A DNA stretch of 64,000 nucleotides, taken from a plasmid. The first letter of the stretch is position 1, and each line of letters begins with the position of its first letter. The stretch lies in NCBI RefSeq assembly GCF_056712565.1, contig NZ_JBWXXM010000002.1, one strand, 5' to 3'. The position numbers are program-made. Shown here piece after piece: positions 24,001 to 27,000 of the stretch.

Positions 24001-27000
24001 TGATGGTGAAATCACTGAGAGAGAATTTTCAGTTCAAATCAAGGTGTCGCCTGAAATGTATTCAACCTGTTTCACTGGTATAAATCAGGGTGATGAGTTG
24101 ATGGTCTCCGGTTATATTGTTGTCGATACTATTATGATTGAAGGGAGAGAACATCCTCTTGACTACATGAGAGTGGTAGCAACAAGTAAGTTGGCTCACA
24201 TACCTAAACCTCTAAAAGGTTTTGGACAAAGTAGCTTTAATCAGATCTGACATTAAACCCACCCTAAAGGGGAGAAATCCCTTCATGGGATTTCTCCTTT
24301 TGGAGTCCCCATGAAACAAAAATTTAGGGCTACTGCAATAAGTAGTAATCAACTTAGTTTTTTTTCTATACTCGATATAGATGAAGATGAAATAACGCAA
24401 ATAGTTGATTCACCCAAAGAGCATTTAAATGATGCTTACACGTCCGGATTAAACTTTAAATCAGAAGAAAGTAACATTTCTGAGATAAATTATGATTCTG
24501 AAAGGCGTGAAAATCACCTTTATGAAAAATCCAAATTACTTAAAAATCAGATTTTGCATACAATTAATTTTGCAGCAGAAACAGATTATCTATATACGGT
24601 TGAAGAATATAACCCAGATTTGGGTGGTCTGGTAATAGAATGGACCCCTGAGGATGTGTATGTTGTTTTTCTATCCGCTATGGAAGAGTCTTTGGAAATC
24701 ATTAAAGAACTAGTGTTGAGGAGAAAGTTATTCTTCAAAGATGACAATGGTAATATCACAGTGAATCCACTTTTAGAAGCTGAAACACGGTGGTATATGT
24801 CAAAATCATTTGAATACACTTGTTTATGTCATGGACTTGATGCATGTGAATTTAGAGCGGAATTAAAATCATGGCTCTATTATCATTCGCATCGTTCGAT
24901 TAGTGAAAACACGAAATTAGCTGAATGCAGGAATGATGATGAAATCATTTTGCATGATTGCAATGACGATATGGGCTGGGACATCTTCTTTGATCAGGAT
25001 TATTTAATGTCAGAAAAAAAACTGGCTGTTAAATGGACTGACAGGGAAATTATGGATGTTTACATAAAAGCTTTTAAATCCACATTAGAGTTGTTTGACG
25101 AGCTTGTTTCATGTGATCTGTTAACTAAACGAAACGCTTTTGGCAAGTTAGAAATCAATCCAATATTCGAAAATCATTTTGAATGGATCATGTCTGAAGC
25201 TTTTGAAATAGTGGGAAATCATCTTGGTTATAATGTGCCTCAAATCAGGAAACTGATGGCAACTATTTGCCAAATGAATCTCAAATAAAATGCCACTGGC
25301 AAACATCTGCCAGAGGGCGGTGTTTGCATTTTACCGGAGTTAAAAATGTCTAATGCCGCTATGAAGTTAAATGAAACATCTTCTGATGCTTATGAAAAAT
25401 TAGAAGCTCTTCTTTCCCCGGATGTTATAAAGTTAAAACATTATGTGGATAAAGGTGAGTATCTTTTAGTTCTAGCAAAGGACCTTTTTGGTATTCCAGA
25501 AATGGATCCAAAGATGGCTGTGCCTGTTTTCAAAACTAAAACCTCGTATCGAGCTCCGCTGAACAAAGACTACATACCAAATCCCCGAATACTTGAACAA
25601 GTGGTTAAACTGCTTATCAGTCCGGATATAGATTTAAGTGTGTGTCTTAAAGGTGAGTCCGGTTCTGGCAAGACTGAAATGGTAATGTACATTAGCCACA
25701 TGATGAATTGGCCGCTGACAATTAAGCAGATCAACAGCAATATTCGAGTTGATGAGCTTGAAGGTGAGCGCAGTCTTAATGGTGGTAATACAGGTTTTGT
25801 ACACAGCGATTTGGTAACGGGATTTCGTAATGGTCACCTCATTCTTCTGGATGAAGTGGACAAAATCGATCCTGATACGGCAGCAAAACTTCACATGCCC
25901 ATTGAACGTAAGCCCTGGTCACTCAGTGCTAATGGTGGTGAGGTTATAACTGCTAATGGCTACACGCGATTTATTGGTACTGCAAACACAAACATGAGTG
26001 GAGGCGCTCGCCGGTTCGTTTCTTCTCAACGTCAAGATGCAGCTTTTATAAAGCGGTTCTTGATAGTTGAAATGGAGAAGCCCGACAAAGTTGCTTTAAC
26101 CAATGTGCTTACTAAACGATATAGCTCTTTGCCTTTTCAGGTCATTGAGAAGTTCGTAAGAGTAGCGATTGCAGTAAATGACTCTGGTACAGAAGACAGT
26201 GTGATGGATATTCGTCAATTAGTAGCTTGGGTTGGCACGTCGATGACGTTAAAAACCTTTAGTCTTCTTGACACTTTCAAAATAGCTTTTGCTTCTGCTT
26301 TACCTTTACATGTGGTCGATCTTGTTCTTCAAGCTATAGATCTTTCTCTTGGCGAAGACAAGGATAAATCGCTGGAGTATTTCACAGCAAAAAAGTCGAG
26401 TTAGATGGGATTTGTTATGAAACCTCTGATATTTGTATCTCAGAGTTATCCCATCTTGAATTTAGTGCGTTTTTAAGTACGGATGGTGCTGCTACCATTG
26501 CTATAGCAAAAAACGGAACTAATTTTACTGGACTTATGCAACTGAATAACGACTATTCTTTATTGTTTTATCATGATGGTAAAATAAATATGGAAGGTCT
26601 GATTAAACAAATGGAATTAAAAGGTTATATGTATCAGGGAGCAATGGGCAATGATGATGTTGTTGCTGAGTTTCCCGGTATTCTTTTAATTTCACCAGAG
26701 AAGCTTTAATATCAACCCTATCGGGAAATCTTTCCCGTTGGGGAGGGTTTCCCCTTTTTTTTGGAGAAACCCATGACTTTAAATACTTCAATGCTTAACA
26801 AAGTATCTGCAAAACAAATCTCTGAGAATTTTGCAAAATCATATCCAGATTTACTGGAAGGTGCAGTTATAACAAAAATTGAAATAAGTGGCTGTCAAGG
26901 ATCGCGTCGAACCGATAAAATCGATTTGTCTTATGATGGAGATGATATTACGGATCAAAAAAGCGTATCTAAAAGCGAAGTACGCTGGATTGACATAAAA

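What the first reader, a model, noticed from the sequence alone, without database searches (positions are those of the whole stretch)
26368..26709. Coding-looking frame without an ATG start in a 355-bp gap
Between the AAA+ gene and the next gene, one frame is open for about 113 codons and reads like protein, but the first ATG is late (26536, leaving 57 aa). This could be a gene using a non-canonical start, a decaying gene, or a frameshift site.
Basis: seen in the sequence. Interest (0 to 1): 0.35.

Follow-up and report, generated by a model that had tools for sequence, protein, structure and literature searches.

The report
Programmed −1 frameshift extending plasmid AAA+ ATPase
The "start-less" open frame is most likely not a separate gene but a C-terminal domain added to the upstream AAA+ ATPase when ribosomes slip back one base at a conserved dnaX-like signal, so this widespread IncHI resistance-plasmid backbone gene would make a short and a long protein; databases annotate it wrongly.

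Summary
In detail: frame 26368-26709 is open, with no ATG/GTG/TTG before 26536. It is the −1 frame of the AAA+ gene (25346-26404). That gene ends ...GCA AAA AAG TCG AGT TAG, which contains the classical slippery heptamer A_AAA_AAG (26389-26395). GGAG lies 11 nt upstream and a 54-nt hairpin starts 7 nt downstream, the same three elements as in dnaX and IS911.

I compared 13 plasmid lineages (AAA+ identity about 50-100%). Eleven keep the heptamer, a GGAG/GAGG motif 10-11 nt upstream, a 0-frame stop 0-2 codons later, and an open −1 frame of 102-117 codons. First canonical start codons are scattered from codon 4 to codon 99. A Buttiauxella lineage has the two parts fused in frame and has lost both heptamer and GGAG. 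One lineage lacks all of it.

The 106-aa extension models as one complete domain (pLDDT 88.7) beginning right at the slip site. The RefSeq 57-aa ORF would be only part of that domain.

Best explanation: programmed −1 ribosomal frameshifting gives a 352-aa and a 454-aa isoform. I found no prior description. No experiment supports it yet, and the extension's function is unknown.

The parts
25346..26404 (+). AAA+ ATPase gene, 0 frame (352 aa; Pfam AAA_5; distantly CobS/MoxR-like). This is the short product, made when no frameshift occurs.
   Evidence: ORF. AAA_5 E=5e-28. Weak CobS similarity, 34 bits against a cutoff of 558. RefSeq names it 'AAA family ATPase' WP_000063335.
26374..26377 (+). Shine-Dalgarno-like GGAG, 11 nt upstream of the heptamer; proposed upstream stimulator of the frameshift.
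   Evidence: Sequence. GGAG, GGGAG or GAGG lies 10-11 nt upstream of the heptamer in all 10 lineages tabulated, although the encoded residues change (LEYF, MEFF, MGDL, FEEL). The motif is absent from the in-frame fused lineage L008 and from L013, which has no extension.
26389..26395 (+). Slippery heptamer A_AAA_AAG in the 0 frame (codons GCA AAA AAG); proposed site of the −1 tandem tRNA-Lys slip.
   Evidence: It is the only X_XXY_YYZ motif inside the 16-61 nt interval where a 0-to-−1 change must occur in every lineage. It is conserved as A_AAA_AAG in 10 lineages and as A_AAA_AAT in Photorhabdus. It is lost in the in-frame fused lineage.
26402..26404 (+). 0-frame stop codon TAG of the AAA+ gene, 2 codons after the heptamer.
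   Evidence: The stop lies 0-2 codons after the heptamer in all lineages that have the heptamer.
26403..26456 (+). Predicted stimulatory hairpin. Its basal helix AGAUGGGAU (26403-26411) pairs with AUCCCAUCU (26448-26456), with an inner helix CUCUGA/UCAGAG. It starts 7 nt after the heptamer.
   Evidence: −17.4 kcal/mol for 65 nt, z = −2.3. The minimum-energy fold has the same register in all 7 HI-like lineages. The basal helix is 93% paired against 46-60% in slid controls, and 2 pairs changed on both sides, including A-U to U-A in L016.
26389..26709 (+). −1-frame extension: 106 codons (KKVELDG...SPEKL) plus TAA. It forms the C-terminal domain of the predicted 454-aa frameshift product (residues 1-348 from the 0 frame plus these 106).
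   Evidence: Gapless homology with IncHI1 starting at the heptamer. AlphaFold model with pLDDT 88.7 and strands from residue 2. Homologous to the in-frame C-terminus of Buttiauxella P0020 (hhalign 93%, E=3.6e-7).
26536..26709 (+). 57-aa ATG ORF annotated by RefSeq as a hypothetical protein (WP_001176647). Here it is interpreted as the 3' part of the extension, not a gene of its own.
   Evidence: The ATG codon is Lys in IncHI1. Residues 50-106 would lack strands E2-5, E8-12, E25-30 and E36-42, nearly all of E45-51, and helix H17-20 of the modelled domain.

Best explanation
The open frame is the −1-frame continuation of the upstream AAA+ ATPase gene. It is reached by programmed −1 ribosomal frameshifting of the dnaX/IS911 type.

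Proposed mechanism: most ribosomes translate ...Ala-Lys-Lys-Ser-Ser-stop and release a 352-aa ATPase. A fraction pause with tRNA-Lys on AAA (P site) and AAG (A site) of A_AAA_AAG (26389-26395). They are held by pairing of the 16S rRNA 3' end with GGAG 11 nt upstream and by a hairpin beginning 7 nt downstream. Both tRNAs then re-pair one base back (AAA AAA), and translation continues as ...Ala-Lys-Lys-Val-Glu-Leu-Asp-Gly... for 104 more codons. The result is a 454-aa protein with an extra ~105-aa α/β C-terminal domain.

Shown directly: the sequence elements, their conservation, the coding character of the frame, the fold prediction, and a natural in-frame fusion.

Inferred: that the shift is ribosomal, that it happens in vivo, and its efficiency. 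Also inferred, by analogy with dnaX and chlD, is that the two isoforms co-assemble into one AAA+ ring so that only some subunits carry the appendage. That appendage might dock the neighbouring DUF3150 or VWA partners or a substrate.
For: - Frame geometry: the finding's frame is −1 relative to the AAA+ gene, and A_AAA_AAG lies in the correct 0-frame phase 2 codons before its stop.
- Conservation across 13 lineages with AAA+ identity ~50-100%: 11 have the heptamer. tabulates 10 of these, with the 0-frame stop 0-2 codons later, GGAG/GAGG 10-11 nt upstream, and a −1 frame open for 102-117 codons ending just before the DUF3150 gene. The heptamer is the only slippery motif within the 16-61 nt obligatory shift window in each.
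- No conserved start codon. The first ATG/GTG/TTG in the extension lies at codon 49 (IncHI2), 16 (IncHI1), 7, 70, 11, 4 or 99 (Photorhabdus), yet protein homology begins at the heptamer.
- Coding signature upstream of the IncHI2 ATG: differences by codon position 19/12/28, as in the downstream half.
- Natural in-frame fusion: Buttiauxella P0020 (456 aa, on 24+ contigs) continues directly into a homologous C-terminal domain (hhalign 93%, E=3.6e-7, 99 colinear columns). It has lost both the heptamer and the GGAG.
- Pseudocitrobacter L013 lacks extension, heptamer and GGAG together.
- A hairpin in the same register appears in 7 lineages despite different interior sequences. The basal helix is 93% paired against 46-60% in slid controls, with two compensatory pairs.
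- The extension models as a single domain whose first strands are residues 2-5 and 8-12 (pLDDT 88.7). In the full-length model the slip site sits between the last AAA+ helix (ends at residue 347) and the first strand (starts at residue 350), with no low-confidence linker.
- Control: of 28 in-frame XXXAAAR heptamers in the window, this is the only one at a gene's 3' end with a long −1 ORF.
Against: - There is no experimental evidence (no protein, Ribo-seq or reporter data).
- Covariation in the hairpin is modest, because both arms encode conserved residues (D-G and H-L). Nucleotide conservation there could therefore be partly protein-driven.
- L012 shows no convincing hairpin (z = 0.09).
- The Photorhabdus heptamer ends in U. 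A_AA.U was not among the frameshift-prone tetramers in E. coli (hierarchy in PMC4066793).
- In L014 an ATG overlaps the AAA+ stop (TAATG) 4 codons after the heptamer, so coupling could also express the domain there.
- An IncHI2 sub-lineage (L018, 13 contigs) carries a 2-nt deletion that breaks the fusion frame and creates an ATG-started 96-aa ORF. The fusion is therefore not indispensable for plasmid persistence.
- An A6 run could also support low-level transcriptional slippage.
Confidence: 0.8

Rival explanations
1. The extension is an independent small gene. It would be translated by its own initiation or by termination-reinitiation coupling after the AAA+ stop, using whichever start codon each lineage has (ATG 26536 in IncHI2, GTG in IncHI1), as RefSeq annotates it.
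For: - RefSeq calls separate ORFs of 57 aa (IncHI2) and 89 aa (IncHI1).
- Gene callers find 91-113 aa ORFs in L011, L012, L014 and L016.
- L014 has an ATG overlapping the stop (TAATG).
- The L018 sub-lineage expresses, at best, a stand-alone 96-aa form.
Against: - Start codons are not conserved in position or identity (codon 4 to codon 99). M50 of IncHI2 is Lys in IncHI1, and V17 of IncHI1 is Ile (ATC) in IncHI2.
- No SD-like motif was seen by eye before these candidate starts in the sequences printed; this was not scanned computationally.
- Residues upstream of the starts are conserved, evolve as coding sequence, and form the first strands of the domain.
- Photorhabdus has no canonical start for 99 of 105 codons.
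- This reading does not explain the co-conserved heptamer, GGAG and hairpin, nor their joint loss in the in-frame Buttiauxella fusion.
Confidence: 0.1
2. The same fusion protein is made, but by transcriptional slippage. RNA polymerase would add one A in the A6 run (A6 to A7), putting the extension in frame in a subset of mRNAs.
For: - An A-run is present at the junction in every lineage that has the cassette.
- A-rich sites are known to serve both mechanisms, for example the A9 run in Thermus dnaX (PMC3711429).
- The Photorhabdus AAAAAAT site is a poor ribosomal heptamer, but its A-run is the same length.
Against: - The run is only 6 A. Sites described for programmed realignment have n>7 A or n>8 T (PMC3711429).
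- Slippage would not need a GGAG at fixed 10-11 nt spacing, a hairpin 6-7 nt downstream, or the exact 0-frame phase of the heptamer, all of which are conserved.
Confidence: 0.07
3. It is a decaying gene or an assembly or sequencing indel: a once in-frame AAA+ C-terminal domain, or an ATG-started gene, now disrupted and non-functional.
For: - An in-frame ancestor-like form exists in Buttiauxella.
- Error-ridden assemblies such as L006 and L021 show that indels do occur at this A-run.
Against: - 1117 independent plasmid records are >=99% identical across the site.
- The same −1 arrangement is kept in 11 diverged lineages with the frame open throughout and a coding-type substitution pattern.
- The domain is predicted to fold confidently.
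Confidence: 0.02

Closest known systems
E. coli dnaX −1 programmed frameshift (tau/gamma subunits of DNA polymerase III)
   Same: Identical heptamer A_AAA_AAG, an upstream SD-like stimulator at ~10-11 nt, and a downstream hairpin at 6-7 nt (dnaX signal as described in PMC3711429; our elements). The host gene is also an AAA+ ATPase that works in an oligomeric ring. The outcome is two isoforms that differ at the C-terminus.
   Different: In dnaX the shifted ribosome soon meets a stop, so frameshifting makes the shorter product (gamma). Here the 0 frame stops 0-2 codons later, and frameshifting makes the longer product with an extra domain. There is no sequence homology beyond the AAA+ fold class.
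IS911 / IS3-family OrfA-OrfAB frameshift
   Same: A_AAA_AAG near the 3' end of the upstream ORF, a GGAG upstream (its mutation to CCUC is mentioned in PMC4066793), and a downstream stem-loop. Frameshifting fuses the upstream protein to a downstream −1 ORF, and the unshifted product terminates shortly after the site.
   Different: That case is a transposase in an insertion sequence; this one is a plasmid backbone ATPase operon. In IS911 OrfB can also start at an AUU next to the site (my own knowledge). No equivalent near-cognate start is present in the −1 frame between GGAG and the heptamer here.
chlD 'magnesium/cobalt chelatase' −1 frameshift (Antonov et al. 2013, PMC3711429; Kuznetsov et al. 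2022, PMC9227772)
   Same: −1 frameshift at A_AAA_AAR at the end of an AAA+ module of the chelatase/MoxR-like world. RefSeq annotates it as two adjacent genes. In-frame fused homologues exist in other taxa and were used as evidence. A VWA-domain partner belongs to the system.
   Different: In chlD the frameshift joins a ChlI-type AAA+ module to its own acidic-linker and VWA region (~1000 nt). Here the AAA+ is AAA_5 type and matches CobS only weakly (34 bits against a cutoff of 558). The appended part is a 106-aa domain with no Pfam, PDB or fold match. The VWA protein is a separate gene two positions downstream, after DUF3150. This is therefore not a member of that family.
Phage tail assembly chaperone G/GT −1 frameshift
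   Same: A conserved −1 frameshift near the end of a gene yields a fixed ratio of a short protein and a C-terminally extended protein that act together (my own knowledge).
   Different: Unrelated proteins and context. Those signals typically use other heptamers (for example G_GGA_AAG in lambda) without the SD-plus-hairpin pair.

Membership tests
Programmed −1 ribosomal frameshift cassette (dnaX/IS911 type) | Slippery heptamer X_XXY_YYZ in phase with the upstream (0) frame | tested here: met
   A_AAA_AAG at 26389-26395 with codons GCA AAA AAG. It is the only such motif inside the obligatory shift window in all 10 lineages tabulated.
Programmed −1 ribosomal frameshift cassette (dnaX/IS911 type) | Overlapping −1 ORF that is open from the heptamer and conserved as coding sequence without its own conserved start | tested here: met
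   102-117 open codons in 11 lineages, with first start codons at codon 4 to 99. Homology begins at residue 1. Substitutions are biased to codon position 3.
Programmed −1 ribosomal frameshift cassette (dnaX/IS911 type) | Downstream RNA structure starting ~5-9 nt after the heptamer | tested here: met
   A hairpin starts 6-7 nt downstream in 7 HI-like lineages and in L014. The basal helix is 93% paired against 46-60% in slid controls, with 2 compensatory pairs. L012 is weak. This is in silico only.
Programmed −1 ribosomal frameshift cassette (dnaX/IS911 type) | Upstream Shine-Dalgarno-like element ~10-14 nt before the heptamer (optional stimulator) | tested here: met
   GGAG, GGGAG or GAGG lies 10-11 nt upstream in 10 of 10 lineages tabulated. 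It is absent in the fused lineage and in the lineage with no extension.
Programmed −1 ribosomal frameshift cassette (dnaX/IS911 type) | Orthologues exist in which the two ORFs are fused in frame | tested here: met
   Buttiauxella P0020, 456 aa. Its C-terminus is homologous to the extension (hhalign 93%, E=3.6e-7).
Programmed −1 ribosomal frameshift cassette (dnaX/IS911 type) | Two protein products in vivo; measurable frameshift efficiency that depends on heptamer and stimulators | not testable with these tools
   Needs a western blot, reporter assay, mass spectrometry or Ribo-seq.
chlD chelatase frameshift family (Antonov 2013) | ChlI/ChlD-type AAA+ module with the frameshift joining it to its own VWA domain | tested here: not met
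   The AAA+ is AAA_5 type and falls far below the CobS/chelatase cutoffs. The extension has no VWA, Pfam or NCBIfam match. VWA is a separate downstream gene.
Independent small protein gene (RefSeq WP_001176647, 57 aa) | Conserved start codon and a complete domain encoded downstream of it | tested here: not met
   The ATG at 26536 is Lys in IncHI1. Starts are scattered. The 57-aa part would lack four β-strands outright, nearly all of a fifth, and one helix of the modelled domain.
Programmed transcriptional realignment (slippage) | Long homopolymer run (A n>7 or T n>8, as cited in PMC3711429) | tested here: not met
   The run is exactly A6 in all lineages. Low-level slippage is not excluded.
Known anti-phage defence systems (PADLOC) | Significant match of the operon proteins to a defence-system model | tested here: not met
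   There are only marginal P-loop-level hits for the AAA+ (E ~2e-4), and none for DUF3150, VWA or the extension.

The most novel reading that the evidence does not exclude
A previously unrecognised, evolutionarily conserved programmed −1 ribosomal frameshift in a backbone operon of IncHI-type conjugative resistance plasmids. It would be one of very few bacterial cases outside insertion sequences and phages, and the third AAA+ ATPase lineage (after dnaX and chlD) to use A_AAA_AAG recoding to make ring subunits with and without a C-terminal appendage. That would hint that frameshifting is a recurrent way of fixing subunit stoichiometry in AAA+ machines. The appended domain has no detectable sequence relatives outside these plasmids and no convincing fold match.
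Probability: 0.7. Interest if true: 0.7.

Novelty: new member of a known kind. Interest (0 to 1): 0.6.

Why it matters
- **Annotation:** about 1400 of the 72,556 plasmids in PLSDB (IncHI2, IncHI1 and relatives, major carriers of mcr-1, carbapenemase and other resistance genes) carry this locus. It is annotated as an ATPase plus a truncated 57- or 89-aa 'hypothetical protein'. The real product set is probably a 352-aa and a 454-aa ATPase.
- **Recoding biology:** conserved −1 frameshifts in bacterial genes outside insertion sequences and phages are rare. This one has all three dnaX-type elements and natural 'controls' (a fused lineage and a lineage lacking it all), which makes it a clean model.
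- **Plasmid biology:** the AAA+–DUF3150–VWA block is a conserved IncHI backbone module of unknown function next to the transfer genes. Knowing that its motor has two isoforms gives a direct handle (heptamer mutants that make only short or only long protein) for finding out what the module does.

Tried and rejected
- **Phage collection:** no match.
- **Extension against Pfam, NCBIfam and PADLOC:** nothing.
- **Deep profile search of the extension** against 1.84 billion representatives: 12 hits. The credible ones are short fragments or short ORF calls from the same plasmids, so there is no outside family or functional clue.
- **Rfam scan of 26300-26800:** only sub-threshold chance hits.
- **H100/L006 (pYSP8-1)** looked like a distant lineage but is an IncHI1 assembly riddled with homopolymer indels. 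Discarded.
- **P0008,** an apparent in-frame fusion contig, is a 1.1-kb error-laden Logan contig (A-run two bases shorter, T-run one base shorter). It is not evidence for anything.
- **Non-canonical start driven by the GGAG (as in IS911 OrfB):** the −1-frame codons between GGAG and the heptamer are GTA TTT CAC AGC, so there is no near-cognate start. Rejected.
- **Literature:** searches for IncHI plus frameshifting, DUF3150, and the GeneTack and Sharma surveys, including Sharma's supplements, found no mention of this gene. I could not query the GeneTack database itself, which might hold an undiscussed prediction for pHCM1, R27 or R478.
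Full report
**1. What is in the sequence.**
The window is backbone DNA of an IncHI2 conjugative plasmid. 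1117 PLSDB plasmids are >=99% identical over 25346-27900, and 281 IncHI1-type plasmids match at ~76%. Typing for one example, pSTM6-275, is IncHI2A, MOBH, MPF_F. The local gene order is trhI, three unknown genes (290, 125 and 325 aa), an AAA+ ATPase (25346-26404, Pfam AAA_5), the gap in question, a DUF3150 gene (26773-27900), a VWA-domain gene (27978-29990), and further on a toprim-domain gene.

Frame 26368-26709 is open for 113 codons. It contains no ATG, GTG or TTG before the ATG at 26536. RefSeq annotates only that 57-aa ORF.

**2. The key geometry.**
The open frame is the −1 frame of the AAA+ gene. The gene's last codons are GCA AAA AAG TCG AGT TAG. They contain the heptamer A_AAA_AAG (26389-26395) in exactly the phase required for tandem −1 slippage.

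GGAG lies 11 nt upstream (26374-26377). Seven nt downstream begins a 54-nt hairpin (26403-26456). Its base pairs AGAUGGGAU with AUCCCAUCU, at −17.4 kcal/mol and z = −2.3. This is the three-part architecture of the dnaX signal (slippery AAA_AAA_G, upstream SD-like sequence, downstream hairpin; PMC3711429 as read) and of IS911 (GGAG and stem-loop; PMC4066793).

Among 28 in-frame XXXAAAR heptamers in the window's ORFs of >=100 aa, this is the only one located at a gene's 3' end with a long open −1 frame.

**3. Comparative test.**
I collected 13 lineages of the AAA+ gene, spanning ~50-100% protein identity:
- IncHI2 (the window, L005, and a 92% variant L017) and IncHI1A/B (L003, L004);
- Photorhabdus (L010) and Buttiauxella (L008);
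- a Pseudocitrobacter plasmid (L013);
- five lineages from metagenomes or draft genomes (L011, L012, L014, L015, L016).

All keep the same six-gene block.

Eleven lineages have A_AAA_AAG (A_AAA_AAT in Photorhabdus) as the last or nearly last codons of the AAA+ gene. In the ten of these tabulated (L005 was analysed only):
- the 0-frame stop comes 0-2 codons later;
- GGAG, GGGAG or GAGG lies 10-11 nt upstream, although the encoded residues differ;
- a −1 frame open for 102-117 codons ends just before the DUF3150 gene.

The interval in which a 0-to-−1 change must occur (from the upstream −1-frame stop to the 0-frame stop) is only 16-61 nt. The heptamer is the only slippery motif in it in every lineage.

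**4. It is not a separate gene.**
The first canonical start codon in the extension frame lies at codon 49 (IncHI2), 16 (IncHI1), 7, 7, 70, 11, 4 and 99 (Photorhabdus). The IncHI2 Met is Lys in IncHI1, and the IncHI1 GTG-Val is ATC-Ile in IncHI2.

Protein homology nevertheless starts at the heptamer. tblastn aligns residues 1-105 between IncHI2 and IncHI1 without gaps, with a conserved K-K-V-x-(I/L)-D-G-x-x-Y ... S-H-L-x-F motif.

Upstream of the IncHI2 ATG, nucleotide differences are distributed 19/12/28 over codon positions 1/2/3 (window against L004). In the downstream half the distribution is 12/17/30, so position 3 carries the most changes in both halves.

AlphaFold2 on a 14-sequence alignment folds the 106 residues into one compact α/β domain (pLDDT 88.7, pTM 0.78). 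Its first strands are residues 2-5 and 8-12. The 57-aa ORF would lack strands E2-5, E8-12, E25-30 and E36-42, nearly all of E45-51, and helix H17-20.

In a model of the whole 454-aa frameshift product (pLDDT 85.3), the last AAA+ helices end at residue 347 and the first strand of the new domain starts at residue 350. The junction is modelled with confidence. The slip site therefore sits on a domain boundary.

**5. Natural 'experiments'.**
- **Buttiauxella:** the AAA+ gene is 456 aa and runs in frame (...YLTAA-RVTIENQVYKVIDL...) into a C-terminal domain. A profile of the −1-frame extensions built without this sequence matches it over 99 colinear columns (hhalign probability 93%, E = 3.6e-7). This lineage has neither the heptamer nor the GGAG.
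- **Pseudocitrobacter L013:** extension, heptamer and GGAG are all absent together.
- **An IncHI2 sub-lineage (L018; 13 contigs from runs whose accession numbers suggest one study):** a 2-nt deletion inside the hairpin breaks the fusion frame and creates an ATG-started 96-aa ORF. The fusion is therefore not essential for plasmid persistence, and the domain might work alone.

**6. RNA structure.**
Folded separately, the 65 nt after the heptamer give, in all seven HI-like lineages, one long hairpin. It opens 6-7 nt after the heptamer and closes at the same position. The basal helix is conserved and the interiors are lineage-specific.

On the 8-sequence alignment the 9-bp basal helix is 93% paired, against 46-60% for slid registers. 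Two pairs changed on both sides (A-U to U-A in L016), and the covariation score is 0.187 against 0.10 in shuffles (3 of 500 reach it).

This support is real but modest. The arms encode conserved D-G and H-L residues, so part of the conservation may be protein-driven. L014 has its own hairpin 6 nt downstream, and L012 has none that is convincing.

**7. Mechanism proposed, and what is inferred.**
The signals, their conservation, the coding nature of the frame, and the fused orthologue are shown. The following are inferred:
- ribosomes shift −1 on A_AAA_AAG, stimulated by the SD-like element and the hairpin;
- a 352-aa and a 454-aa isoform are produced in some fixed ratio;
- by analogy with dnaX tau/gamma and chlD, the two isoforms co-assemble so that only some subunits of the AAA+ ring carry the appendage.

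What the appendage binds is unknown. It has no Pfam, NCBIfam or PADLOC match. It has almost no relatives among 1.84 billion representative proteins. No convincing fold relative was found.

The AAA+ and VWA proteins are only remotely chelatase-like (CobS 34 bits against a cutoff of 558; 'putative cobaltochelatase' 33 bits against a cutoff of 779). The operon should not be called a chelatase.

**8. Rivals.**
- **Independent initiation or coupling (about 0.1)** is favoured only by L014's TAATG overlap, by scattered GTGs, and by the L018 variant.
- **Transcriptional slippage on A6 (about 0.07)** would give the same protein. It does not explain the phased heptamer, the SD spacing or the hairpin, and the run is shorter than known realignment sites.
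- **Pseudogene or sequencing error (about 0.02)** is excluded by the conservation.

**9. Comparison with known systems and novelty.**
Mechanistically this is a dnaX/IS911-type cassette. In outcome (a longer fusion) it resembles IS3-family OrfAB and the chlD chelatase frameshift (A_AAA_AAR, annotated as two genes, fused homologues elsewhere; PMC3711429 and PMC5009743; PMC9227772).

It is not a member of the chlD family. The AAA+ subtype differs, the appended domain is not VWA, and VWA is a separate gene.

Full-text searches and the two main bacterial frameshift surveys, including one set of supplements, do not mention it. The GeneTack database itself could not be queried.

I rate it a new member of a known kind. 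It is of clear interest to recoding and plasmid specialists and corrects the annotation of ~1400 plasmid records, but it remains unproven experimentally.

Noticed in passing
window 26710-26772 (core 26723-26762): The intergenic element between the extension's stop and the DUF3150 start reads AACCCTATCGGGAAATCTTTCCCG..GGGGAGGGTTTCCCC followed by a T-run. It forms two adjacent GGGAAA/TTTCCC-type hairpins, the second terminator-like. It is more conserved than the flanking genes: identical between IncHI2 and IncHI1, and recognisable in all 10 lineages, including the fused lineage and the one with no extension. It could be an attenuator or partial terminator, or a protein-binding site controlling DUF3150/VWA expression. 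There is no Rfam match.
   Followed up: partly
L018:1424-1564 (IncHI2 sub-lineage, Logan ERR1715026 and related runs); corresponds to window ~26445: A 2-nt (TA) deletion inside the hairpin breaks the −1 fusion frame. It puts the ATG at window 26417 in frame with the rest of the extension, giving a stand-alone 96-aa ORF (P0001; 13 contigs, 99 member sequences). This is a natural uncoupling mutant that has persisted.
   Followed up: partly
L008 (Buttiauxella, GCA_900446255.1) and L013 (Pseudocitrobacter, GCA_029335625.1): Two lineages of the same six-gene block lack the frameshift cassette. One has the AAA+ and the C-terminal domain fused in frame (456 aa). The other has no C-terminal domain at all, with only 92 nt between the AAA+ stop and the DUF3150 start. 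The appendage has therefore been fixed, recoded or lost in different plasmids.
   Followed up: yes
window 22943-29990: A syntenic block of six genes (290 aa, 125 aa, 325 aa, AAA+, DUF3150, VWA) is kept in every lineage examined, between trhI and a toprim-domain gene. The first three have no Pfam, NCBIfam or PADLOC match. The VWA protein has a long acidic low-complexity region (about residues 255-400). The function of the module is unknown, and it is not a catalogued defence system.
   Followed up: partly
window 26405-26476: A short 0-frame ORF starts at the ATG immediately after the AAA+ TAG (MGFVMKPLIFVSQSYPILNLVRF*). Its ATG is part of the conserved hairpin arm (AGATGGG). IncHI1 has an 11-codon counterpart. 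It is probably incidental to the RNA structure.
   Followed up: no
L006 (NZ_CP037911.1, pYSP8-1) and L021 (Logan SRR12298573 contig): These public sequences carry many homopolymer indels across this region, producing fragmentary 'AAA family ATPase' and hypothetical ORF annotations. They mimic frameshift variants but are assembly-quality artefacts.
   Followed up: yes
plasmid hits H1 (CP070406.1) and H2 (NZ_CP091555.1): In two IncHI2 plasmids the 2555-bp query matches in two pieces separated by ~0.8-1.1 kb. In H2 an ISApl1 (IS30-family) transposase is annotated under the match, so an insertion sequence has landed inside this module. The exact insertion point was not examined.
   Followed up: no
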